From the NCBI GenBank assembly GCA_963556825.1, contig CAUWAM010000001.1, forward strand, positions 685-64,684: a DNA stretch of 64,000 nucleotides, read 5' to 3'. This DNA is from an uncultured Clostridia bacterium. Lineage in GTDB: Bacteria > Bacillota > Clostridia > TANB77 > CAG-508. The notes under the pieces are model-generated. The model made no database searches. It was not told where the DNA came from and was given only the letters and a program-made list of their open reading frames with translations. Position 1 is the first letter of the stretch. Each line of letters begins with the position of its first letter. A program made the translations under genes and the position numbers. This document shows positions 42,946 through 58,537 of this stretch, piece after piece.

Positions 42946-43092
42946 ATGAAGCACATAAGAACTTTATCAGGCAAGCTCCTTAAAGACACTATGAAAAACG
43001 GTGGTTGTGGAGAATGTCAGACTTCATGCCAGTCAGCTTGCAAGACTTCTTGTACGGTTGGCAACCAACATTGCGAAAACAAAAATCAGTAA
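42946..43092 (+). CDS. scfA: SCIFF (six-cysteines-in-forty-five) radical SAM-modified peptide precursor
   Basis: 48 aa MKHIRTLSGKLLKDTMKNGGCGECQTSCQSACKTSCTVGNQHCENKNQ. The GGCGECQTSCQSACKTSCTV core is the hallmark of SCIFF (TIGR03973 type). RBS ggaggagg. The ORF track's 60-aa cutoff excludes it. Confidence 0.8.
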   Translation: MKHIRTLSGKLLKDTMKNGGCGECQTSCQSACKTSCTVGNQHCENKNQ

Positions 43093-43200
43093 TATATGGT
43101 AATTGTTTTTCGAAAAAAGAAGTACTTTGGGACAGTAAAACTGTTTCAAAGTGCTTTTACTATTTATGAATTAAATTATAAAACTATTGTATTCAAAATA

Positions 43201-43227
43201 GAATAAAAAATCTAAAAATTTCTTAAA
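43201..43227 (+). repeat. 27-bp direct repeat, left copy (island boundary)
   Basis: gaataaaaaatctaaaaatttcttaaa is identical to 50024-50050. Confidence 0.6.
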
Positions 43228-43595
43228 TGACATTGTATCATATGTAGTGCTTTCATCTTTAGTTTTTTTAGAAGAAAAATTCATTTATATAAATTTGTTT
43301 AGCACAATGGTTAGCAGGAAAGATAGCAAAAAAATAATTATAAATAATTTCAAATAATATTATGAAAACAAATGATTTCTAAAAACAATAAAAATACTTG
43401 TAAAAGAAATAAAAATATAATATAAAAACATTAGAAAAAGAAAACAAAAGATAAATAAAATTATAGATAAGTTTTATGATACAGTAGAAAAATTCATTTA
43501 AAGAGAGAAGAAAAAGAGAAAAATTGGGATTTGGAAATTTAAATAGTGCAATTTAGGAAAAGAAATGTTATAATGATGTGGTAGGAGGAATCAGG

Positions 43596-44342
43596 ATGAA
43601 ACAAAATATATATGATAATGAGATATTTTCAAATGCATACGACCAAATGAGAAAGATAGATAAGGGGAAAAATGCGAATGACTTGGTTGAAATTCCTAAT
43701 TTTAGAAAGTTGATTCCAAATGTTAAAGGAAAAAAGATTCTTGATTTAGGATGTGGATATGGAGAAAACGATAAGTATTGTAGAGATTTAGGAGCAAAGG
43801 AAATTCTAGGAATTGATATTTCTGAACACATGATAAAAATTGCGAAAGAGAATAATTATGACAAAAATATAAAATATAAAGTAATGGCAATGGAAGACAT
43901 TAGTAAAATTAATGAAAAATTTGATATTGTTATTTCATCATTAGCATTTCATTATGTTAAAGACTATGAAAAATTAATAAATGATATATATAGTTTATTA
44001 AATGATGACGGAATATTAATTTTTTCAATAGACCATCCATTAAGGATAGCAAGCAAGTTTGAAAAATGGATGAAAAAAAATTATACAGAGATAAATGGAA
44101 AGTGGTTTTTACTTGTTTCAGACTATAATCGAGAGGGAGTAAGAGAAAAGGAGTGGAATGGTGTTATGGTGAAAAAGTACCACAGAAATTTTAGTAGTTT
44201 AATAAATGTCCTAGTAAATTCAGGATTTAAAATTGATAAAATTTTAGAGCCAATACCAGATGAAGAAAGTATAAAAATTATTCCAAAATATATCAATCAA
44301 TTTGATAGACCATATTTTTTATTTATAAGAGCTAAAAAGTAG
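43596..44342 (+). CDS. class I SAM-dependent methyltransferase
   Basis: Motif I ILDLGCGYGEN and post-I D(I) acidic residues (Methyltransf_11/25-like). The ATG is 7 nt after GGAGG. The track start is a GTG 6 codons upstream. Confidence 0.7.
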   Translation: MKQNIYDNEIFSNAYDQMRKIDKGKNANDLVEIPNFRKLIPNVKGKKILDLGCGYGENDKYCRDLGAKEILGIDISEHMIKIAKENNYDKNIKYKVMAMEDISKINEKFDIVISSLAFHYVKDYEKLINDIYSLLNDDGILIFSIDHPLRIASKFEKWMKKNYTEINGKWFLLVSDYNREGVREKEWNGVMVKKYHRNFSSLINVLVNSGFKIDKILEPIPDEESIKIIPKYINQFDRPYFLFIRAKK

Positions 44343-44392
44343 CATGGAACAAATATAAATTCCATGCTACTTTTATAGAAAATAGTTATTTT

Positions 44393-44971
44393 CTAATAAT
44401 AAATAGGTTTCAATGCAGTGAGATTGTAGTCAATTTCAAATAATGCTGTGTTTGCAGGTTGCTTAGCATTTTTATATTGAGTTTCATAGATATATTTAAT
44501 GAACTCATTTCTATATTTCAAATAATATGAAATAATACGAAGTGTACCACCATGAGCAACAATTAACACATTTTCATTTTTTGAAAACTGTTCATCAAAA
44601 AAATTTTTGATTCTAAAATAAACATCTTCTGTTGATTCAGCGTTAAAAAAAGAGGGCGTAGAATTATAGAGATCCCATTCTTCTTGCAAAATTTCAGGAA
44701 TAAATCTGCCTTCTAGAGTCCCATAATCAACACTTCTAAGTCGAGAATCTAAAATAACATCTTTTGATAAATACTTATTGATGATTTGCGTAGTTTGAAT
44801 TGCACGGAGCAAATCAGAAGATATTATTTTATCAAAATTGAGCTTTTCTATTTTCGTTCTAGCAATATCAGCTTCTTTCCGTCCGTTTTCATTAATTGGA
44901 ATTGGATTATGTCCCTGTAATTGCTTAGACATATTCCAGTCAGTTTGACCATGTCTTACAATATAAATCAT
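44393..44971 (-). CDS. histidine phosphatase family protein (phosphoglycerate mutase/CobC-like)
   Basis: MIYIVRHGQTDWN.. RHG catalytic motif and a second His in ..LIVAHGGTLR... RBS ggaggt. Confidence 0.7.
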   Translation of the reverse strand: MIYIVRHGQTDWNMSKQLQGHNPIPINENGRKEADIARTKIEKLNFDKIISSDLLRAIQTTQIINKYLSKDVILDSRLRSVDYGTLEGRFIPEILQEEWDLYNSTPSFFNAESTEDVYFRIKNFFDEQFSKNENVLIVAHGGTLRIISYYLKYRNEFIKYIYETQYKNAKQPANTALFEIDYNLTALKPIYY

Positions 44972-45032
44972 ATAATTACCTCCGTTCATATAAAGAAACC
45001 TACTAAAAATAAACTAAATTCATACATTAAAT

Positions 45033-45087
45033 TTTATCACATTATGTAAAATTAGTCAATCATTGACATAAAATAAAAATTGTGATA
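45033..45087. promoter_or_regulatory. nested palindrome (candidate operator) in the divergent promoter region
   Basis: TTATCACA..(13)..GTCAATcATTGAC..(13)..TGTGATAA. The outer 8-bp inverted repeats flank a perfect 6-1-6 palindrome. It overlaps the putative NUDIX promoter (TTGACA-17-TAAATT). Confidence 0.3.
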
Positions 45088-45115
45088 AATTAAAAAAACG
45101 TAGGAGGAAAATGTA

Positions 45116-45661
45116 ATGGAATGCATAATAAAGATAAACGATAAAGATATAGGAGAAGAAATCTATAAAATAAATGAACCAAATATAAGAAAAGCAGTTC
45201 GCACAATTTTATTTAATGAAAAAGGTGAAATAGCAATACTACATAAAAAAAACAAAAATGAATATAAACTTGTTGGGGGCGGCATTGAAGAGAACGAAGA
45301 TATGGAAGAGGCGCTAAGAAGAGAAGTAAACGAAGAAGCAGGATGTGAAATAAAAGATATAGTGGAACTAGGTTATGTAGAGGAATTAAGAACTGTAAAT
45401 AATTTTATGCAAATATCATATGTTTTTATTTCAAAGGTTAAAATAGATAAAAAACAACTGAACTTAACTAAACAAGAACAAGATGAGGGAGCTGAAATAT
45501 GTTGGCTATTACCTGAAATTGCTCTAAAAAGGATAAAAGAATGTTATGATAAATTAAATCCATCTAAATACAGTAACTTATATAATTCAAAAATGGTTAT
45601 AAAAAGAGATGAACTTATATTAGAATATTATTTAAAAAAAAATGAAAGAACCACAATATAA
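45116..45661 (+). CDS. NUDIX hydrolase
   Basis: Perfect Nudix box G-GIEEN-E-DMEEALR-RE-V-N-EE-A-G-C (GX5EX7REUXEEXGU); 181 aa; RBS aggagg. Confidence 0.8.
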   Translation: MECIIKINDKDIGEEIYKINEPNIRKAVRTILFNEKGEIAILHKKNKNEYKLVGGGIEENEDMEEALRREVNEEAGCEIKDIVELGYVEELRTVNNFMQISYVFISKVKIDKKQLNLTKQEQDEGAEICWLLPEIALKRIKECYDKLNPSKYSNLYNSKMVIKRDELILEYYLKKNERTTI

Positions 45662-45694
45662 TGGTTCTTCATTTTTTCGGTAGCAATGATAAAA

Positions 45695-46546
45695 TTAATT
45701 ACAATGATCCTTTTCGTAAATCTCTTTGATATTGAGATTGTCTGTTAACATATTTCCATAATTAACATCCTCTGTTTCAGCTCCAATCATTCTATACAAA
45801 TCTCCATGAGGAGATACCATAAGACGTGTAGCTAATTTTGAAGGCATTCTACCATCAATTTTGAGATTAGGAAACATTTTCTGTAACTGAGCAACCTTAG
45901 CGAAAAATTCTTCATCAGTAATATCAAAGCGATTTTTGTTAGGAACAGCTCCTCTTCCACTTGCGGAATTAAAGCGTCTTAGTTTCCAATGGTCAACTCC
46001 AAGTTCATTTAAGAGTGAACCAAGTTCTTCAAGATAATCGATATTTTCTTTGTGAACACAAGTGTTAATAAGAACACCGATGTTTCCTGCTTTTTTGACC
46101 ATTTTGATACGAGAGATGATGGTGTCACGATGACACTTTGTGCAGCGAATTTTTTCATTCAATTCGTCATTTGCAGATTCAAAAGGAAATGCAATAGAGT
46201 TTAAGTGATTTTTAATTTTTCCAAATGTTTCCTCTGTAAGAAGAATACCATTTGTACTAAGTCGTGTATCAAGACCTCTATTGTATGCATCGATAATCAA
46301 ATCAGGCAAATGGGGAATCAATAATGGCTCGCCACCAATGTAACGCATCTTGGTTAAACCAGTTTCGATTAACTGATTTTGTACCTTGAAGTGTCCTTCT
46401 CTTGTTGTTATTTCACTCCGTTTGTTAGGACTGATGCAGTAACCACATCTTTCCTGACAAGAATGGGTAATAATCCAAGAGATAATTACTTCGCCAACAT
46501 GATTGGGATCTTCGATAGTATAATGCTTTTTTTCATTACTATTCAT
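45695..46546 (-). CDS. radical SAM enzyme, viperin/MoaA-like core, no SPASM domain
   Basis: CxxxCxxC in ITHSCQERCGYCISP, a GGE motif (YIGGEPLL) and STNGILL. Visibly higher GC (~35-38%) than the ~27% background. RBS ggaggtg. Several blocks align with viperin by eye: TRQCNYKCGFC, SGGEPFL, SNGSLI. Confidence 0.7.
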   Translation of the reverse strand: MNSNEKKHYTIEDPNHVGEVIISWIITHSCQERCGYCISPNKRSEITTREGHFKVQNQLIETGLTKMRYIGGEPLLIPHLPDLIIDAYNRGLDTRLSTNGILLTEETFGKIKNHLNSIAFPFESANDELNEKIRCTKCHRDTIISRIKMVKKAGNIGVLINTCVHKENIDYLEELGSLLNELGVDHWKLRRFNSASGRGAVPNKNRFDITDEEFFAKVAQLQKMFPNLKIDGRMPSKLATRLMVSPHGDLYRMIGAETEDVNYGNMLTDNLNIKEIYEKDHCN

Positions 46547-46658
46547 AATTAGCACCTCCATAAAGTCTTATTGATAGGTAAAAAAACATTTATCGTTACC
46601 GAACTAACTATATTATATCAACAAAAAGAAATTATGTCAACAAAACGGTCGAAAACTG

Positions 46659-46687
46659 TTGAAATAATTGGAAAAAAGTTGTATAAT
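46659..46687 (+). promoter_or_regulatory. sigma-A promoter for the oxidoreductase-MTase-phosphatase operon
   Basis: TTGAAA, 17 nt spacer, tgtTATAAT (extended -10). An upstream inverted repeat caacaaaacggtcgaaaactgttg is also present. Confidence 0.5.
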
Positions 46688-46722
46688 TAGAGAGAATTGT
46701 TATAAAAAAATGGAGGATTTCT

Positions 46723-48171
46723 ATGGGAACACCAAATATCATGTTGATTGGGTGCGGACCTCATGCAAAAAGAGTATATGTTCCTAAATTAAAAGAGGTT
46801 GAAAATGAGTTTAGAATAAAACTTAAAGCAGTTGTAGAATTAGAAGAAAAAGAGGAAGATGTAAAAAAATTTATCTCAAATTACTTTGAAAATATTGAAT
46901 ACATTTTTATTGAAAAATTTGAATCTAAATACAGACAAAATTTACCAAAGGAGATTGAAAGTAGATTAGATAATATTGTAAAAAAGGAAAACATTAACTC
47001 TGTTATAATTGCAACAGATCCATTAAATCATATGCAATATGCACTATGGGCTTTAAAAAACAAACTGCATATTTTAATGGATAAGCCTATTTCTACATAC
47101 GATAATATTTCTAATAATGTTGAGCAAGCAGAACAATTAAAAAGAGATTATGAATTATTGGTAAAAAATTATTCAAGTAATCAAGCATTTATTGTAAATG
47201 CTCAAAGGAGATTTTTACCGCAATTTCAAATTGTTCAAGATTTAGTAAATGAAATTGCAAGCAAATATGGAATGCCAATTACATCAATACAAAGTACACA
47301 CAGTGATGGTCAATGGAGATTACCAGATGAGGTTTTAAAGTTAAGGTATCATCCATTATTAGGTTGGGGAAAAGTTTCACATAGTGGATATCATTTTATA
47401 GATATGGCATCAAAAATGGTAAAAGATTCATTTAAAGAAGCGAACAAAACATTTGATGAAATATCAGTGTTTACAAAATTTATTCGACCATCAGGAGTTT
47501 TATTACAACAAAATCAAAAAGATTTGAAAACAATTTTTGGAGAAGAATATTTAAAAATTGATTCTAGGACTGATGATGAACTAATTAAATTATATAAAGA
47601 AAAAAATGAGGCTGAGGTTGATGCAAATTCAATTATTTCATTATCATATGAAGGCATTACTGTTACAAATATTACATTGAATTTAATGCATAATGGTTTT
47701 TCTCGTCGTTCTTGGTTGAATGCCAATATGAAAGACTTATATAAAGGAAATGGTAGAGTAAGACATGAATATCATAATATAGAACAAGGTTGTTTACAAA
47801 ATATTCAAATACATTCATATCAGTCTAAAGATAAACATGGTATTAATAAAGAAAGTGATTTTGAACTAGGTGGAAACAATCATTATGATATATATGTTTT
47901 TAGAAATAGTGGAATAACTGGTGGTGAGACTATAAAAGTAATCAGAGGAATAGATATTGCAGAAAAATATTCATTAGATAAGACAAAAATAATGAATGAA
48001 CTGGCTAGACACGAAGCATTAAAGCAATTTTTAGAGGTTGTGATAGGCAAGAGAAAACCTATGGAGACAAAGTCAAATATTCTAGATCACAAGATGTCTG
48101 TTGAGATAATGTCACTAATTTATAAATCAGGCACAAGTGAAAATGAAATAAAAGAAAAATATCAAGATTAA
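46723..48171 (+). CDS. Gfo/Idh/MocA-like NAD(P)-binding oxidoreductase, unusually long (482 aa)
   Basis: N-terminal Rossmann motif IMLIGCGPHAKRVYVPKL is typical of the Gfo/Idh/MocA family. The C-terminal ~150 aa are unassigned. Confidence 0.55.
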   Translation: MGTPNIMLIGCGPHAKRVYVPKLKEVENEFRIKLKAVVELEEKEEDVKKFISNYFENIEYIFIEKFESKYRQNLPKEIESRLDNIVKKENINSVIIATDPLNHMQYALWALKNKLHILMDKPISTYDNISNNVEQAEQLKRDYELLVKNYSSNQAFIVNAQRRFLPQFQIVQDLVNEIASKYGMPITSIQSTHSDGQWRLPDEVLKLRYHPLLGWGKVSHSGYHFIDMASKMVKDSFKEANKTFDEISVFTKFIRPSGVLLQQNQKDLKTIFGEEYLKIDSRTDDELIKLYKEKNEAEVDANSIISLSYEGITVTNITLNLMHNGFSRRSWLNANMKDLYKGNGRVRHEYHNIEQGCLQNIQIHSYQSKDKHGINKESDFELGGNNHYDIYVFRNSGITGGETIKVIRGIDIAEKYSLDKTKIMNELARHEALKQFLEVVIGKRKPMETKSNILDHKMSVEIMSLIYKSGTSENEIKEKYQD

Positions 48172-48181
48172 TGAGGTATAT

Positions 48182-48856
48182 ATGGAGAATAAAGATAATC
48201 AATGGAATAAATTATATGAAAATTATATAAATAAAGAATTTAAAAATTGGGATGAATATTTTAAAACAAAAATGAAATTAAAAAAGAAATTTTTACATCA
48301 GGTATTAAAATATTATGATGGAAAAAAGCCAGTTTTGGAATGTGGAGCTGGAACAGGTAAATTTTCTGCTTATCTTGCTTCGAAAGGTGTAAAAGCATAT
48401 GCAATGGATTTAGAACAAGCGATGGTTGAACAAACAAGAGAATTATCCAAACAAGTAAGTCCTGAAAATGAGGTTAATGTTTTTCAGGGAGATATTAGAA
48501 ATATACCATTTGAAAATAAATTTTTTTCAGTAACACATAGTAGTGGGGTTATGGAACATTATAGTGATGAAGAAATAGTTGAGATAATAAATGAACAATT
48601 AAGAGTTTCTGACATTTGCATGTTTAGTGTACCAACTCCTTATTTTGAGAAAAAAATGCTTGGAAACGAAAGATTTATGAAACGAAACAAGTGGAGAACA
48701 ATAATAGATAAAAGTAATGCAGAGATAATTAAAGAAACAGGATATCATTATAAAACATTATGGAATAGAGTTATTGACATATGTAAAAAACCATCAAGAA
48801 TATTAAAACCAATAGCATTATATGTGTTTGTATTAAAAGAAAAGGAGGAAAAATAA
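48182..48856 (+). CDS. class I SAM-dependent methyltransferase
   Basis: Motif I VLECGAGTGKFSAYLA, AYAMDLEQ; 224 aa. Confidence 0.7.
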   Translation: MENKDNQWNKLYENYINKEFKNWDEYFKTKMKLKKKFLHQVLKYYDGKKPVLECGAGTGKFSAYLASKGVKAYAMDLEQAMVEQTRELSKQVSPENEVNVFQGDIRNIPFENKFFSVTHSSGVMEHYSDEEIVEIINEQLRVSDICMFSVPTPYFEKKMLGNERFMKRNKWRTIIDKSNAEIIKETGYHYKTLWNRVIDICKKPSRILKPIALYVFVLKEKEEK

Positions 48857-48857
48857 A

Positions 48858-49421
48858 ATGATTTATGTAGTAAGACATGGACAAACAAATTGGAATTTGG
48901 AAGGAAGATTTCAAGGAAGAATTGATATTCCTTTAAATGAAAAAGGAAAAAGCCAAGCAGAAAAAACAAAAGAAAAATTGGAAGATATTAAATTTGACAA
49001 AGTATTTTCAAGCCCATTAACGAGAGCATTAGAAACAGCACAAATTATTACAGATGAGCCAATTGAAATTGATGATAGAATAATCGAAAGATGTAATGGA
49101 CAACTAGAAGGCAAATTAAAAACAGAATGTGAAAATATGGTTGATTTCACAGATGAAAATGAACAAAAACTTGGAATTGAATCTTTACCAGATTTTAGAG
49201 GAAGAATAACTAGTTTCTTTGATGAATTAGGAGAGAAATATGCAGGTAAAGATGTATTAGTAGTAACTCATGCTGGAGTTAGTATTTATGTAAGATGTTA
49301 TTTTGAGGGAGAGCCAAAAGACGGAAATTATAATAATTATAAATTAAAAAATTGTGAAGTTCTTCAATATGATAATTCTAGAAAGGTAAATAAAGCAATA
49401 GAAGATGATTTTGAAAGATAA
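48858..49421 (+). CDS. histidine phosphatase family protein (paralogue of 44393-44971)
   Basis: MIYVVRHGQTNWNLEGRFQG.. and ..LVVTHAGV... It starts 2 nt after the MTase stop, which suggests operon coupling. Confidence 0.7.
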   Translation: MIYVVRHGQTNWNLEGRFQGRIDIPLNEKGKSQAEKTKEKLEDIKFDKVFSSPLTRALETAQIITDEPIEIDDRIIERCNGQLEGKLKTECENMVDFTDENEQKLGIESLPDFRGRITSFFDELGEKYAGKDVLVVTHAGVSIYVRCYFEGEPKDGNYNNYKLKNCEVLQYDNSRKVNKAIEDDFER

Positions 49422-49426
49422 AATAT

Positions 49427-49459
49427 GTAGGGGATTCTTAATTCCCTACATATTTTTTT
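49427..49459. terminator. intrinsic terminator
   Basis: tgtaggggatt-N-aattccctaca followed by T7. Confidence 0.5.
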
Positions 49460-49586
49460 CTAACCATTTATATATATCATCATCAGTAAGTTCGCCGTGT
49501 TTTAATTTTGTAATCTGTTCTTTAGCTTGTTTCTTCCAAGTGTCAAATTCTTGCTTAATTTGTTTATCTCCTTTATTCTTATTCAT
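49447..49586 (-). CDS. possible small ORF (46 aa), uncertain
   Basis: MNKNKGDKQIKQEFDTWKKQAKEQITKLKHGELTDDDIYKWLEKNM. No convincing RBS, and the stop lies inside the terminator stem. Confidence 0.2.
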
Positions 49587-50023
49587 AAAAGTAAATTTTT
49601 GAACATATAGTTTTCTATATTCAGAATATGGTGTTTTTTCTTATAATCTTTTATTGTAAGAAAGTGTAGTTATTTATCTTTGAAAGTTCTTCTAGTATTG
49701 CATAACAAATGCTAGATAAATCATTACTTTTATGAGTATTTACCATTGAAATTATTGTTGTTTTATTTTTTAATTTTTCCAATAGTTCATATTCAGATAC
49801 GTCAAGTAATTCATCATATTTATTTGAGTAACTGCCTGAAATAACAGTATCATTCTTTTATAAGATATACAGCATATCTTTCAGAATGTGTATAAGGTCT
49901 TAATTCTTCAATATCATCTATATTATATATGTAATTTACGGCATCTATCATATAAATGCAGGTTATTCTGAAAAATGATGCAATTCCAAAAGTTGCACAA
50001 GATATTGTTTTACTTAAAATTGG

Positions 50024-50050
50024 GAATAAAAAATCTAAAAATTTCTTAAA
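50024..50050 (+). repeat. 27-bp direct repeat, right copy (island boundary)
   Basis: Identical to 43201-43227. An extended ~35-bp match has 2 mismatches. Confidence 0.6.
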
Positions 50051-50129
50051 AACCTTGTAAAATAAACCCAATTGTGTTAATATAATAAATATATAAAATA
50101 AATCCAATTAAAAAGCAAAGTATATATAT

Positions 50130-50346
50130 TAAATAAAAACAGAGAAAATATCCTAGGCTGAAAGATATTTAAACAATATGTAGAAATTTCACTTTTTAGG
50201 ACTTCTTTTGAACAACAAAAGTAGAAAGAAGCGGTTGAACCGTTAAAACTATAATAAGGTTAGTTAGAAATAATAAACTAATAAATTTAGGTGGTACCAC
50301 GGAAATCCATTTCGTCCTATACAAATAGGATGATGTGGATTTTTTT
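50130..50346 (+). promoter_or_regulatory. T-box riboswitch leader (Phe specifier) for pheS-pheT
   Basis: Stem I AGAGA and distal-loop GCUGA motifs, a candidate specifier UUC-A (aaatTTCac), the T-box sequence AATTTAGGTGGTACCACGG (~50284-50302), then a terminator hairpin plus T7 ending at ~50346. Confidence 0.6.
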
Positions 50347-50480
50347 GAGACAGTTGGGACAGTCCAATTTTGTCTCATAAATTAAATCAAATATTGTCGA
50401 AAAATAAAAATAATAACAAAGTGACAAAAAATAACAAAAATAATGAGACAAAATTGGACTGTCCCAACTGTCTCAAAAGG
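50347..50480 (+). repeat. palindromic intergenic element, copy 1
   Basis: Perfect 31-bp terminal inverted repeats GAGACAGTTGGGACAGTCCAATTTTGTCTCA / TGAGACAAAATTGGACTGTCCCAACTGTCTC flank a ~68-nt A-rich loop with an inner IR TTGTCg..tGACAA. Confidence 0.7.
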
Positions 50481-50489
50481 AGAGAAAAA

Positions 50490-51539
50490 ATGAAAGAACA
50501 AATTTCAAAAATTAAAGAAACTTCAGTAGAAGAAATCAAAAAATCTGAAGATTTAAAAACTTTAAATGACATAAGAGTAAAATACTTAGGAAAAAAAGGT
50601 GAACTTACAGCAGTATTAAGAGGAATGGGAGGATTATCTCCAGAAGAAAGACCAATAATAGGGAGCTTAGTAAATGAAGTAAGAGATGAATTAGAAAAAT
50701 TAATTCAAGTAAAGGAAGAAAAATTTAAAGCAGAAGAATTAAATAAGAAATTAGAAAATGAAAAAATAGATATTACACTTCCAAGTACAAAAATAAAAAG
50801 AGGAAGTTTGCATCCAGTGAATAGAATAATTGAAGATATAGAAGATTTATTTGTATCAATGGGGTATGATGTAGTAACAGGACCAGAATTAGAAAATGAT
50901 GAGTATTGTTTTGAAAGATTAAATCTTCCAAAAGGGCATCCAGCAAGAGATATGCAAGATAGTTTCTATATAACTGATGAATATTTATTAAGAACACAAA
51001 CATCAGCAGTTCAAGCAAGAACAATGATGGCAAACACTGATAAAACACCAATCAGAATGATTACAGCAGGAAAAACATATAGAAGAGAAGATGACGCAAC
51101 ACACTCTCATCAATTTAATCAAATAGAAGGTTTAGTTATAGATAAAAAAGAAAGAAATGTTTCTTTGGCAGACTTAAAAGGAACACTAGAAGTATTTGTT
51201 AGAAAAATAATAGGAGCGAATCTAGATTTAAGATTTAGACCAAGTTATTTTCCATTTACAGAACCATCTTATGAAGTAGATGTTACATGTTTTAAATGTG
51301 GAGGAAAAGGATGTAATCTATGTAAGCAAACGGGATGGATAGAAGTTTTAGGAGCAGGTATAGTTCATCCAAATGTTTTAAAAATGAATGGATATGACCC
51401 AGAAAAATTTGGTGGATTTGCATTTGGAACAGGTATTGATAGACTTGCAATGTTTAGATACGGAATCACAGATATGAGATATTTATATACAAATGATGTC
51501 AGATTTTTAAATCAATTTGACAGAAAAGATGAAGAATGA
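50490..51539 (+). CDS. pheS: phenylalanine--tRNA ligase alpha subunit
   Basis: Class II core (..[12 protein letters not shown].., ..[13 protein letters not shown]..). RBS aaaaggagag. The track N-terminus is a translation of the repeat. Confidence 0.9.
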
Positions 51540-51671
51540 GACAGTTGGGACAGTCCAATTTTGTCTCATGATATACAGAAAATATTGTCGAAAAATAGTG
51601 TTAAATAATAAAAACGACAAAAAACAACAAAAACAATGAGACAAAATTGGACTGTCCCAATTGTCTCAAAG
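51537..51671 (+). repeat. palindromic intergenic element, copy 2
   Basis: Same 31-bp terminal IRs (1 mismatch in the right arm) with a related loop (inner IR TTGTCG..CGACAA). The element begins with the pheS TGA stop. Confidence 0.7.
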
Positions 51672-58462: not shown

Positions 58463-58537
58463 AGGGGTATAGTGTCAATGGTAGCACATCGGTCTCCAAA
58501 ACCGCCTGTGAGGGTTCGAATCCTTCTACCCCTGCCA
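58463..58537 (+). tRNA. trnW: tRNA-Trp (anticodon CCA)
   Basis: 75-nt cloverleaf with a 7-bp acceptor AGGGGTA/TACCCCT, a D-arm GTGT/GCAC, an anticodon loop CUCCAAA (U33, CCA, A37), a T-arm GAGGG-TTCGAAT-CCTTC, discriminator G and an encoded CCA. Closely resembles B. subtilis tRNA-Trp. Confidence 0.85.

What the first reader, a model, noticed from the sequence alone, without database searches (positions are those of the whole stretch)
43201..50050. A ~6.8 kb compositionally atypical island bounded by a perfect 27-bp direct repeat, carrying a putative nucleotide-modification cassette
The sequence gaataaaaaatctaaaaatttcttaaa occurs exactly at 43201-43227 and at 50024-50050, and an extended ~35-bp match has 2 mismatches. 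A chance 27-mer match in 64 kb is negligible even at 73% AT. Between the copies lie seven genes with no neighbours from core metabolism: a SAM methyltransferase, a histidine phosphatase (-), a NUDIX hydrolase, a viperin/MoaA-like radical SAM (-), a Gfo/Idh/MocA-like oxidoreductase, a second SAM methyltransferase and a second histidine phosphatase. The right end (49.6-50.0 kb) is a degenerate gene remnant. At least the radical SAM gene is clearly GC-richer than its surroundings. The island sits between a SCIFF peptide gene that lacks its usual maturase and the pheST T-box leader. The enzyme set reads as a pathway acting on a nucleotide, nucleoside or dinucleotide: radical SAM chemistry on a sugar or base, pyrophosphate cleavage, dephosphorylation, redox and two methylations. 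I do not recognise it as a described system. It could produce a modified nucleoside (antiviral ddh-nucleotide-like, or a small natural product), or it could be a defence cassette. No integrase or transposase is present, so the direct repeats may be att remnants of an older insertion or a target duplication.
Basis: partly seen in the sequence, partly recalled or inferred. Interest (0 to 1): 0.85.

Follow-up and report, generated by a model that had tools for sequence, protein, structure and literature searches.

The report
Mobile viperin-like nucleotide-tailoring gene cassette
A seven-gene enzyme cassette built around a distant relative of the antiviral enzyme viperin sits between two identical 27-base repeats in an uncultured gut Clostridium; the same cassette has moved between gut Firmicutes, and its product, probably a modified nucleoside, is unknown.

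Summary
The 27-mer occurs exactly twice (43201-43227, 50024-50050; none expected by chance). It brackets seven intact genes (two class-I methyltransferases, two histidine phosphatases, a Nudix hydrolase, a radical SAM enzyme and a 482-aa Gfo/Idh/MocA oxidoreductase) plus a frameshifted gene remnant.

The "atypical composition" claim is only partly right. Bulk GC matches the flanks, but third-codon-position GC (GC3) is raised in three genes, most of all the radical SAM gene.

No empty site was found. However, four sibling species carry the cassette (83-92% nt identity) in four unrelated contexts, with homology ending at its first and last genes. Three distant lineages also have it flanked by direct repeats, and those repeats are copies of local flanking sequence. 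So it is a mobile cassette without mobility genes. Here the right repeat copy sits at the pheST promoter.

Gfo::Nudix fusions and a thymidylate-kinase-like neighbour elsewhere point to a nucleotide substrate. Function is inferred, not shown, and no description was found in the literature.

The parts
42946..43092 (+). SCIFF six-cysteine peptide gene (left neighbour, not part of the cassette); no maturase gene in the window
   Evidence: PF13165 88.3 bits and TIGR03973 85.8 bits. The two other CxxxCxxC-motif ORFs of at least 150 aa in the window are a MiaB/RimO-type enzyme and a collagenase-like protein.
43118..43158 (+). Terminator-like hairpin after SCIFF. Homology to the sister species ends at 43112.
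   Evidence: 19-pair stem; blastn end points.
43201..43227 (+). Left copy of the perfect 27-bp direct repeat
43228..43592 (.). AT-rich non-coding spacer inside the repeat-bounded segment. It has no homologue in other cassette loci and no Rfam match.
43593..44342 (+). MT1: class-I SAM methyltransferase (249 aa). Accessory: close orthologues (82-92% aa) occur only in close relatives; a second methyltransferase sits in distant loci (L054 is a weak MT1 match, 33% over 100 aa).
   Evidence: PF08241 75 bits; distribution
44393..44989 (-). HP1: histidine phosphatase branch 1 (RHG motif IVRHGQTDWN). Accessory: present in some lineages.
   Evidence: PF00300 133 bits; distribution
45031..45091 (.). Divergent promoter-like sites for HP1 and Nudix, embedded in a 28-nt imperfect palindrome (45033-45089)
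   Evidence: inverted repeat I16; sequence
45116..45661 (+). Nudix hydrolase (181 aa) with an intact Nudix box (GGIEENEDMEEALRREVNEEAGC). Present in most distant cassette loci but lost in close relatives L015-L017. Fused to the Gfo-like protein in L056 and L030.
   Evidence: PF00293 59 bits; fusion
45646..45670 (.). Bidirectional terminator-like hairpin between Nudix and the radical SAM gene
45695..46546 (-). Viperin-like radical SAM enzyme (283 aa from the ATG at 46546; an upstream ATG at 46561 gives 288 aa). CQERCGYC cluster motif. Core gene.
46612..46687 (.). Back-to-back promoters: 12/12 consensus with TG extension for the radical SAM gene (minus strand), 11/12 for the Gfo-MT2-HP2 operon (plus strand)
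46723..48171 (+). Large Gfo/Idh/MocA-type NAD(P) oxidoreductase (482 aa; GCGPHA Rossmann motif, DKP motif). Core gene.
   Evidence: PF01408 38.7 bits; AF2 pLDDT 89.5; Foldseek hits to sugar and cyclitol dehydrogenases
48182..48856 (+). MT2: class-I SAM methyltransferase (224 aa). Core gene.
   Evidence: PF13649 59.8 bits; 62-92% identical in nearly all cassette loci
48858..49421 (+). HP2: histidine phosphatase branch 1 (VVRHGQTNWN). Core gene.
   Evidence: PF00300 156 bits; distribution
49430..49447 (+). Terminator-like hairpin after HP2. Homology to other cassette loci ends at 49426.
49449..49951 (-). Frameshifted remnant of an unidentified gene (about 168 codons over three frames). No Pfam or PHROG match, and no homologue in any fetched locus.
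50024..50050 (+). Right copy of the 27-bp direct repeat, immediately upstream of the pheST promoter -35 box
50054..50322 (+). pheST promoter (TTGTAA-N17-TAATAT, conserved in relatives) and T-box leader (50098-50322). Right neighbour, not part of the cassette.
   Evidence: Rfam RF00230 100 bits; comparison with L060 and L062

Best explanation
The repeat-bounded segment is a self-contained metabolic cassette that moves between genomes. It lies between the SCIFF terminator and the pheST promoter.

Insertion (inferred): the 27-bp repeat is most simply a duplication of the sequence just upstream of the pheST -35 box, made when the segment went in. It is not the att site of a dedicated recombinase.

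Gene set (shown): the core is a viperin-like radical SAM enzyme, a large Gfo/Idh/MocA oxidoreductase, a methyltransferase and a histidine phosphatase, with a Nudix hydrolase in most lineages. A second methyltransferase, a second phosphatase and, in some lineages, a thymidylate-kinase-like kinase are accessory.

Mechanism (inferred):
1. The radical SAM enzyme abstracts a ribose hydrogen from a phosphorylated nucleotide (an NTP, NDP or NDP-linked compound) and rearranges or dehydrates the sugar, as viperin does.
2. Nudix cuts the pyrophosphate and the histidine phosphatases remove the remaining phosphate(s).
3. The Gfo-type enzyme oxidises or reduces a ring hydroxyl, and the methyltransferases cap the product.

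The end product would be a free, methylated, sugar-modified nucleoside (or the released sugar), not a triphosphate.

What is shown versus inferred: gene identities, fold, conservation, fusions, mobility and repeats are shown. The substrate, the order of steps and the product are inferred.
For: Cassette and mobility:
- The same seven genes occur at 86.6% nt identity in another gut species in a different context. Homology covers only 43593-49426.
- Window, L001, L015 and L017 share no flank homology.
- Only 18 of 185,579 species genomes carry the radical SAM gene. All are uncultured MAGs: 17 are labelled Clostridia/Clostridium, Bacilli, Mollicutes/Tenericutes, Coprobacillus or unclassified, and one Woesebacteria. 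Several come from gut samples.
- The module of radical SAM, MT2, HP2 and a Gfo-like gene, usually with Nudix, recurs in all of them.
- Flanking direct repeats also occur in L026 (about 335 nt, 83%; copy of the promoter and 5' end of the right-hand gene), L030 (105 nt, 89%; copy of the 3' end of the left-hand ORF) and L029 (108 nt, 87%). They are unrelated in sequence to each other and to the 27-mer.
- The right 27-mer abuts the conserved pheST promoter, and homology to relatives' pheS leaders starts at 50048-50155.

Function:
- The best NCBIfam and PADLOC models are viperin and pVip.
- The Gfo-like and Nudix proteins are fused in L056 and L030.
- A thymidylate-kinase-like P-loop kinase lies between the radical SAM gene and MT2 in L024 and L026.
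- The Gfo model matches sugar-ring dehydrogenases.
- The Nudix box and the RHG motifs are intact (read directly from the sequence).
Against: - No empty site was seen, and the island is fixed in all 14 same-species contigs read (9 arrangements shown).
- Cassette divergence equals housekeeping divergence, so vertical descent with local rearrangement is not excluded for the window species.
- No mobility gene is present, and 27 bp is long for a transposase-type target duplication.
- The radical SAM enzyme scores below every viperin cutoff (101 against 180; 38.6 against 450).
- Four of the seven positions I recall as triphosphate contacts in mouse viperin are changed: N77S, H79I, K220L, R245H. The residue list is from memory, not from a paper read here.
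- The nearest family members outside the clade are lone genes with no cassette.
- Nothing here identifies the substrate.
Confidence: 0.45

Rival explanations
1. Anti-phage defence. The radical SAM enzyme is a divergent prokaryotic viperin that makes a ddh-NTP chain terminator. The Nudix, phosphatases, oxidoreductase and methyltransferases protect the host or recycle the product.
For: - PADLOC pVip models are the best hits (111 and 108 bits).
- The fold is viperin-like.
- A kinase neighbour occurs in L024 and L026, with a weak match to the PADLOC model named VakA. Known pVips are often kinase-associated.
- The cassette is mobile and patchily distributed.
Against: - It scores below the NCBIfam viperin cutoffs.
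- K220, R245, H79 and N77 equivalents are changed.
- Five conserved partner enzymes that strip phosphates would inactivate a triphosphate terminator.
- Neighbours are housekeeping genes (rpe, pheST, fab, Sua5, pcrA, polC), not defence islands.
- It is fixed within the species.
- It is absent from IMG/VR, phage and plasmid collections.
Confidence: 0.12
2. Not an island. This would be an ordinary, vertically inherited metabolic operon of this genus that has been shuffled by local rearrangements. The 27-mer would be a stray duplicated piece of the pheST promoter upstream region with no link to insertion.
For: - Cassette nt identity to relatives (84-87%) matches housekeeping identity (82-88%).
- Bulk GC is host-like.
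- There are no mobility genes.
- It is present in every same-species contig that extends past SCIFF.
- The region next to SCIFF is a rearrangement hot spot in relatives anyway.
Against: - There are four different contexts in four sibling species, with homology ending at the cassette's first and last genes.
- Only 18 species in GTDB carry it, spread over Clostridia and Bacilli-type MAGs at 60-70% aa identity.
- Flanking repeats recur in three more lineages.
- GC3 of the radical SAM gene is raised in the whole clade.
- The repeat copies sit within 0-90 nt of both synteny break points.
Confidence: 0.15
3. Sugar or cyclitol pathway. The radical SAM enzyme acts on the sugar of an NDP-sugar (or on an inositol phosphate). 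Nudix releases the sugar phosphate, a phosphatase frees it, Gfo-type redox and two O-methylations follow, and the product goes to a surface glycan or osmolyte.
For: - The nearest Gfo structures are sugar and inositol dehydrogenases.
- Nudix enzymes cut NDP-X compounds, and weak Nudix hits include diphosphoinositol polyphosphate phosphohydrolase.
- DesII and BlsE, radical SAM enzymes acting on sugar moieties, are among the structural neighbours.
- Loss of the K220 and R245 equivalents could fit a diphosphate-linked substrate (inference).
- Glycosyltransferases lie near the cassette in L026.
Against: - No glycosyltransferase or nucleotidyltransferase is conserved with the cassette.
- The kinase neighbour is thymidylate-kinase-like, not a sugar kinase.
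Confidence: 0.15
4. Salvage or breakdown of an external nucleoside or cofactor, as with radical SAM queuine lyase in gut Clostridia. The aim would be to recover a base, sugar or cofactor precursor for these small-genome auxotrophs.
For: - Hosts appear to be uncultured small-genome gut MAGs (inference from the record titles; genome sizes not checked).
- Neighbours in some loci are nucleotide-handling genes: Q_salvage, NADAR-DHH, HD_3/YfbR-like, CYTH and cytidylate kinase.
- The phosphatases' best model is alpha-ribazole phosphatase CobC, below its cutoff.
Against: - Two methyltransferases fit biosynthesis better than breakdown.
- No transporter is conserved with the cassette.
Confidence: 0.1

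Closest known systems
Viperin / prokaryotic viperins (pVip; NCBIfam NF038283, TIGR04278; SAM-dependent nucleotide dehydratase)
   Same: - CxxxCxxC radical SAM core and about 280-aa size.
- K120, N222 and K247 equivalents are kept.
- There is an occasional nucleotide-kinase neighbour.
   Different: - About 20% identity, and scores are 101 against 180 and 38.6 against 450 for the family cutoffs.
- N77, H79, K220 and R245 equivalents are replaced by S, I, L and H.
- It is always linked to Gfo, methyltransferase and histidine phosphatase genes, and usually to Nudix, which are not described for pVips.
- Neighbours are housekeeping genes.
- The family collapses to one 50%-identity cluster among 1.84 billion representatives, and the next full-length relatives are at 36-39% identity.
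MoaA (GTP 3',8-cyclase)
   Different: - HMM score is 58.7 against 284.
- Only two further invariant cysteines (C163, C282), so no three-Cys auxiliary cluster site.
- No Moco genes are nearby.
Nucleoside natural-product gene clusters that pair a sugar-modifying step with phosphohydrolases and tailoring enzymes (for example tubercidin with its Nudix TubG, cordycepin Cns1-3, blasticidin BlsE). Recalled from memory, not checked here.
   Same: The logic is the same: a nucleotide-level modification, then phosphate removal, redox and methylation to give a free nucleoside.
   Different: - Those clusters are from actinomycetes or fungi and have no viperin-like enzyme in this combination.
- No sequence-level orthology was found.
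- Here the hosts are gut Firmicutes, and the cassette has no transporter, regulator or resistance gene.
Genomic islands / integrative elements bounded by att direct repeats
   Same: A discrete segment bounded by a perfect direct repeat, in a different location in each relative, with partly atypical codon composition.
   Different: - No integrase, transposase or tRNA target in the window.
- In other lineages the flanking repeats are 105-335-nt copies of neighbouring genes and unrelated in sequence. That fits duplication of the target, or single-crossover integration of a circle, rather than a fixed att core.

Membership tests
Viperin / pVip | Radical SAM CxxxCxxC motif and SAM-binding core | tested here: met
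   CQERCGYC at residues 30-37, invariant in the family; PF04055 68.6 bits.
Viperin / pVip | Score at or above the curated family cutoff (NF038283 180 bits; TIGR04278 450 bits) | tested here: not met
   101 bits and 38.6 bits. The nearest out-group relatives are also below cutoff, at 62-166 bits.
Viperin / pVip | Viperin fold including the C-terminal extension | tested here: met
Viperin / pVip | Conserved NTP triphosphate-contact residues (mouse N77, H79, K120, R194, K220, N222, R245, K247; list recalled from the structural literature, not re-read here) | tested here: inconclusive
   HMMER and hhalign alignments give K120=K66, N222=N161 and K247=K188 kept. N77=S23, H79=I25, K220=L159 and R245=H186 are changed. 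R194 falls in an indel. The C-terminal residues could not be aligned by sequence.
Viperin / pVip | Makes 3'-deoxy-3',4'-didehydro-NTP and protects against viruses | not testable with these tools
   Needs enzyme assays and phage challenge.
MoaA | Family HMM cutoff and a C-terminal three-Cys auxiliary 4Fe-4S site | tested here: not met
   TIGR02666 58.7 against 284. Only C163 and C282 are invariant besides the SAM-cluster cysteines.
Gfo/Idh/MocA oxidoreductases | N-terminal Rossmann fold with GxGxxG/A and the (E/D)KP motif; two-domain fold | tested here: met
   PF01408 38.7 bits, above the 24 cutoff. G10-C11-G12 and K121-P122 are invariant. Foldseek TM to targets is 0.69-0.75. It is about 120 residues larger than solved members.
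Nudix hydrolases | Nudix box Gx5Ex7REUxEExGU | tested here: met
   GGIEENEDMEEALRREVNEEAGC read in the translation; PF00293 59.1 bits.
Histidine phosphatase superfamily, branch 1 | N-terminal RHG catalytic motif | tested here: met
   IVRHGQTDWN (HP1) and VVRHGQTNWN (HP2); PF00300 133 and 156 bits. Both are below the CobC equivalog cutoff, at 110-112 against 163.
Integrative genomic island | Integrase or other recombinase, often next to a tRNA gene | tested here: not met
   No such ORF lies between the repeats. The only tRNA in the window is tRNA-Trp at 58463. Only L026 has an integrase and tRNA-Leu, about 1.9 kb from its cassette.
Integrative genomic island | Flanking direct repeats and variable location or presence among relatives | tested here: met
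   27-bp repeat; four contexts in four sibling species; repeats in L026, L029 and L030. An empty site was looked for and not found.
Integrative genomic island | Composition unlike the host | tested here: inconclusive
   GC is host-like. GC3 is raised in 3 of 7 genes, with z of 4-7. Divergence from relatives equals that of housekeeping genes.

The most novel reading that the evidence does not exclude
Uncultured gut Firmicutes share a small mobile cassette in which a new viperin-like radical SAM clade, together with Nudix, histidine phosphatases, a large Gfo-type oxidoreductase and methyltransferases, converts a common nucleotide into a free, methylated, sugar-modified (ddh-like or deoxy) nucleoside. 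The compound would be released into the gut as an antimetabolite, antiviral or signal. The cassette would spread by an integrase-free route that duplicates tens to hundreds of bases of the target.
Probability: 0.25. Interest if true: 0.85.

Novelty: new variant of a known kind. Interest (0 to 1): 0.62.

Why it matters
- Viperin chemistry is so far known as a one-enzyme antiviral trick. A conserved cassette that couples a viperin-like enzyme to five or six tailoring enzymes would mean the same radical step is used as the entry point of a small-molecule pathway in gut commensals.
- The product could be a new nucleoside analogue made inside the human gut.
- The family is a clean, compact target: 283 aa, a high-confidence model, and 7 genes in under 6 kb. 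It suits heterologous expression.
- Separately, target-derived direct repeats of 27 to about 335 nt recur around the same cassette in unrelated genomes, with no recombinase in three of the four loci. This is a tractable case for how gene cassettes move in AT-rich Firmicutes.

Tried and rejected
- **Empty-site search.** The exact-SCIFF look-up gave only same-species contigs, all with the island. The metagenome scan with the DUF8173 neighbour gave sister species in which SCIFF is followed by pta-ackA or is absent. PheS relatives have rpsO-pnp or sortase-region genes upstream. None is a true empty site.
- **Extended repeat.** The flanks of the 27-mer are not significantly alike.
- **Riboswitch or leader in the 365-nt spacer.** Rfam found none at E up to 1.
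- **Pseudogene identity.** There is no Pfam or PHROG hit, and no homologue in the 63 fetched loci.
- **Phage or plasmid carriage.** No relative of the radical SAM protein was found in IMG/VR or in PLSDB plasmids, and the island DNA has no match in the phage collection.
- **Exact radical SAM protein.** It is not on record.
- **Literature.** Four full-text searches for viperin-like clusters with Nudix, phosphatase, methyltransferase or gene-neighbourhood terms found nothing relevant.
- **Viperin contact residues.** I could not find the viperin-CTP structural paper in the library, so the residue list is from memory.
- **AFDB50 fold library.** It was unavailable.
- **Moco, queuosine, cobamide and PQQ readings.** Rejected because all equivalog scores are far below cutoff.
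- **SCIFF maturase elsewhere in the window.** The two other ORFs of at least 150 aa with a CxxxCxxC motif are a MiaB/RimO-type enzyme and a collagenase-like protein.
- **Nearest out-group radical SAM (P0122).** It is a lone gene between ybeY and yqfD, so its context gives no clue.

Full report
**1. The observation**

The 27-mer GAATAAAAAATCTAAAAATTTCTTAAA occurs exactly twice in the window, at 43201-43227 and 50024-50050, both on the + strand. There is no third copy at up to 3 mismatches and none in 100 shuffles. The repeat has sharp edges. Ungapped, nothing matches beyond it, and the 40 nt on each side are no more alike than shuffled sequence.

Seven ORFs lie between the copies, and Pfam confirms each of them:
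- MT1, 43593-44342 (+)
- HP1, 44393-44989 (-)
- Nudix, 45116-45661 (+)
- radical SAM, 45695-46546 (-)
- a 482-aa Gfo/Idh/MocA protein, 46723-48171 (+)
- MT2, 48182-48856 (+)
- HP2, 48858-49421 (+)

The catalytic motifs (CxxxCxxC, the Nudix box, RHG twice, GxGxxA and DKP) are intact in the translations. A gene remnant on the minus strand (about 49449-49951) can be read only across three frames. It matches nothing in Pfam, PHROGs or any fetched locus.

The promoter and terminator scan suggests five transcription units. It finds a 12/12 consensus promoter for the radical SAM gene back-to-back with an 11/12 promoter for Gfo-MT2-HP2. It also finds terminator-like hairpins after SCIFF, between Nudix and the radical SAM gene, and after HP2. 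The T-box is at 50098-50322. No known RNA family lies in the 365-nt spacer upstream of MT1.

**2. Composition**

Windowed GC across the island is 0.25-0.30, the same as the flanks, except 0.33-0.36 over the radical SAM gene.

Per gene, background GC3 in the window is 0.119+-0.021:

| Gene | GC3 | z |
|---|---|---|
| MT1 | 0.208 | 4.2 |
| HP1 | 0.206 | 4.1 |
| radical SAM | 0.268 | 7.0 |
| Nudix, Gfo, MT2 | about 0.157 | 1.8 |
| HP2 | 0.101 | -0.9 |

The raised GC3 of the radical SAM gene is shared by the close relatives L001 and L015 (0.261 each) but not by distant lineages. 'Compositionally atypical' is therefore true for three genes at synonymous sites, not for the island as a whole.

**3. 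Is it an island?**

Fourteen metagenome contigs that encode the identical SCIFF peptide were read (9 distinct arrangements shown). They are 99.8-100% identical to the window, and each carries the same arrangement as far as it extends. Both 27-mers are present wherever the contig spans them. The island is fixed in this species.

In a sister species of the human gut (PrkC, rsgA and rpe 82-88% nt identical), homology ends at 43112, 20 nt after the SCIFF stop. There SCIFF is followed by pta-ackA and polysaccharide genes, and in other contigs SCIFF itself is missing.

On the other side, relatives with 88-93% identical PheS keep the downstream synteny but have rpsO-pnp or other genes upstream. Their homology to the window starts at 50048-50155, right after the right-hand 27-mer. 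The pheST promoter (TTGTAA-N17-TAATAT) is conserved immediately downstream of that copy.

So both repeat copies sit within 0-90 nt of the two synteny break points. However, no genome with SCIFF next to pheS was found.

**4. The cassette elsewhere**

The same seven genes occur at 86.6% nt identity in another gut species, between TetR/MMPL and Sua5/fab genes. The homologous block is 43593-49426 only, from the first start codon to the last stop codon.

Two further GTDB species (uncultured Clostridium sp. UMGS1423 and UMGS1754) have a five-gene version without HP1 and Nudix. The window, L001, L015 and L017 share no flank homology at all. That makes four sibling species with four different contexts.

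Because cassette divergence (84-87%) equals housekeeping divergence (82-88%), I cannot tell movement within the clade from transfer between its members. Either way the unit that moves is the cassette itself.

**5. Flanking repeats recur**

A local-alignment test compared 800 nt outside each end of the cassette in 20 loci:

| Locus | z |
|---|---|
| window | 8.7 |
| L026 | 108 |
| L030 | 41 |
| L029 | 36 |
| L001 | 4.8 (weak) |
| L024 | 4.2 (weak) |

- In L026 the repeat is about 335 nt at 83% identity. It is a copy of the promoter, a terminator-like hairpin and the first ~40 codons of the TPR gene to the right. An integrase and tRNA-Leu lie about 1.9 kb to the left.
- In L030 the repeat is 105 nt at 89% identity and is the 3' end of the ORF to the left.
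- In L029 the repeat is 108 nt at 87% identity and ends in a stop codon.
- The repeats are unrelated in sequence between lineages.

They are therefore copies of the local target, not ends of the element.

This pattern would fit insertion that duplicates the target. It would also fit single-crossover integration of a circular copy that carries a short stretch of the target. It does not fit a fixed att core or a fixed-length transposase duplication. This is inference, and I could not test the mechanism.

The radical SAM protein has no relative in IMG/VR or in PLSDB plasmids, and the island DNA has no match in the phage collection.

**6. The radical SAM family**

A search of 5.8 billion proteins found 330 relatives. 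The 120 best listed are all at 57% identity or more and about 280 aa for the full-length ones.

Among 1.84 billion 50%-identity representatives, the family is a single cluster. The next full-length relatives have 36-39% identity, and only 8 proteins reach E<=1e-30. The ten out-group relatives scanned also score below the viperin cutoff (62-166 against 180 bits). The closest of them is a lone gene between ybeY and yqfD.

In GTDB, 18 of 185,579 species genomes carry the family. All are uncultured MAGs: Clostridium sp., Clostridia, Bacilli, Bacillales, Mollicutes/Tenericutes, Coprobacillus, one unclassified bacterium and one bin labelled Woesebacteria.

Family matches:
- NCBIfam: viperin_w_prok, 101 bits against a cutoff of 180.
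- PADLOC: pVip, 111 bits.
- PDB profile search: viperin 5vsl/6q2p at E 4e-15, then viperin-like enzymes, then MoaA.

The HMMER and hhalign alignments let me compare positions I recall as triphosphate contacts in mouse viperin. This list is my memory of the viperin-CTP structure, not re-read here.
- Kept: K120, N222 and K247 (K66, N161, K188).
- Changed: N77, H79, K220 and R245 become S23, I25, L159 and H186.
- The family has its own invariant basic residues: R134, R190, R198, R206, R233 and R241, with K204 nearly invariant.

My reading is that the fold and probably the type of chemistry are viperin-like and that the pocket still binds an anionic substrate, but not necessarily a plain NTP.

**7. 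The partners**

The Gfo-like protein models well (pLDDT 89.5). It matches sugar and cyclitol ring dehydrogenases generically, including NAD-dependent glycoside hydrolase, DgpA, glucuronide 3-dehydrogenase and scyllo-inositol dehydrogenases. At sequence level it is almost unrelated to solved structures.

Across the 18 genomes and further metagenome loci, the radical SAM gene, MT2 and HP2 are found together with a Gfo-like gene in nearly every locus, and with Nudix in most distant loci. HP1 occurs in some. Close MT1 orthologues occur only in close relatives, although distant loci have their own second methyltransferase.

Three context clues bear on function:
- The Gfo-like and Nudix proteins are fused into one 656-aa ORF in L056 and L030.
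- A 215-235-aa P-loop kinase sits between the radical SAM gene and MT2 in L024 and L026. It aligns end-to-end with thymidylate kinase, although below cutoff at 22-25 against 27 bits.
- In Bacilli-type MAGs an acetate-kinase-family gene always directly precedes the Gfo-like gene.

None of the seven proteins reaches an NCBIfam cutoff. Full-text searches found no description of such a cluster.

**8. Most likely mechanism**

Shown: gene identities, fold, conservation, fusions, mobility and repeats.

Inferred: the radical SAM enzyme starts the pathway on the ribose of a phosphorylated nucleotide. Nudix and the histidine phosphatases then remove the pyrophosphate and phosphate. The Gfo-type enzyme changes the oxidation state of a ring hydroxyl, and the methyltransferases finish the molecule. 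The product would be a free modified nucleoside or its sugar.

A conserved set of phosphate-removing enzymes argues against a triphosphate chain terminator as the end product, and so against a classical pVip defence role. The housekeeping neighbours and the fixation within the species point the same way.

The main rivals are a sugar-nucleotide or cyclitol pathway, a salvage pathway, a defence system, and an ordinary operon with a coincidental repeat. Their confidences are listed separately.

**9. Verdict**

The repeat and the gene set are real. The segment is a mobile cassette rather than a classical integrase-borne island, and the 27-mer is best read as a duplication of the target at the pheST promoter.

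The enzyme set is a previously undescribed combination built on a new, isolated viperin-like clade from uncultured MAGs, mostly gut Firmicutes. I rate it a new variant of a known kind (viperin-type nucleotide chemistry) with an unknown product. It is worth an experiment.

Noticed in passing
window 50343-50478 and 51537-51667: There are two copies of a ~130-nt palindromic, MITE-like element with 31-nt terminal inverted repeats (GAGACAGTTGGGACAGTCCAATTTTGTCTCA; 4 arms, 0-1 mismatch, none expected by chance). One lies between the T-box terminator and the pheS start, the other between pheS and pheT. The closest PheS relative (L060) lacks them at these places.
   Followed up: partly
window 42946-43092; L035 8897-9040; L042 6313-6456: The SCIFF peptide gene has no radical SAM/SPASM maturase next to it in the window, and none was found anywhere in the window. 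The same holds in the sister species, where pta-ackA follow SCIFF. The orphan SCIFF is a lineage trait, not a result of the island.
   Followed up: partly
L026 6679-7012 and 13122-13443; L030 5295-5422 and 10846-10977; L029 6531-6638 and 11513-11620: The cassette is flanked by target-derived direct repeats of about 335, 105-128 and 108 nt (83-89% identity) in three unrelated MAG lineages. The repeats are partial copies of the neighbouring genes and are unrelated in sequence to each other and to the 27-mer.
   Followed up: yes
L056 4825-6795; L030 6814-8784: The Gfo/Idh/MocA-like and Nudix proteins are fused into a single 656-aa ORF in two lineages. This gene fusion links the two functions.
   Followed up: yes
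L026 10376-11083; L024 10791-11438: A thymidylate-kinase-like P-loop kinase (Walker A EGMDLAGKS) is inserted between the radical SAM and MT2 genes in some lineages. The Pfam match is full-length but just below cutoff. There is also a weak match to the PADLOC model named VakA.
   Followed up: partly
L020, L022, L023, L028, L030, L032, L054, L056: An acetate-kinase-family gene (about 40% identical to clostridial AckA) directly precedes the divergent Gfo-like gene in all eight Bacilli-type loci. In L056 and L030 it sits inside the cassette. I did not resolve whether it is the housekeeping ackA or a pathway kinase.
   Followed up: partly
L026 3789-5537: tRNA-Gly and tRNA-Leu are followed by a 471-aa phage-type integrase, about 1.9 kb to the left of the cassette. 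This is the only cassette locus seen with a recombinase nearby.
   Followed up: partly
window 45033-45089: A 28-nt imperfect palindrome (TTTATCACA...TGTGATAAA) spans the divergent HP1 and Nudix promoter-like sites. It may be an operator. No regulator gene is in the cassette.
   Followed up: no
window 45695-46546 versus L015, L001: The radical SAM protein is far better conserved than its neighbours (95% aa identity against 84% for Gfo in L015). It keeps GC3 of about 0.26 in three sibling species whose background is 0.12-0.19.
   Followed up: partly
L058 8001-10869: A 54%-identical member of the large Gfo-like family sits in a different cluster, next to a TPP-enzyme-like gene and several unknowns, with no radical SAM gene. 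The Gfo-like family (1223 hits) is wider than the radical SAM family (330 hits).
   Followed up: no
L015 11993-12172: There are seven tandem copies of an 18-nt unit inside a minus-strand ORF next to the cassette in uncultured Clostridium sp. UMGS1423.
   Followed up: no
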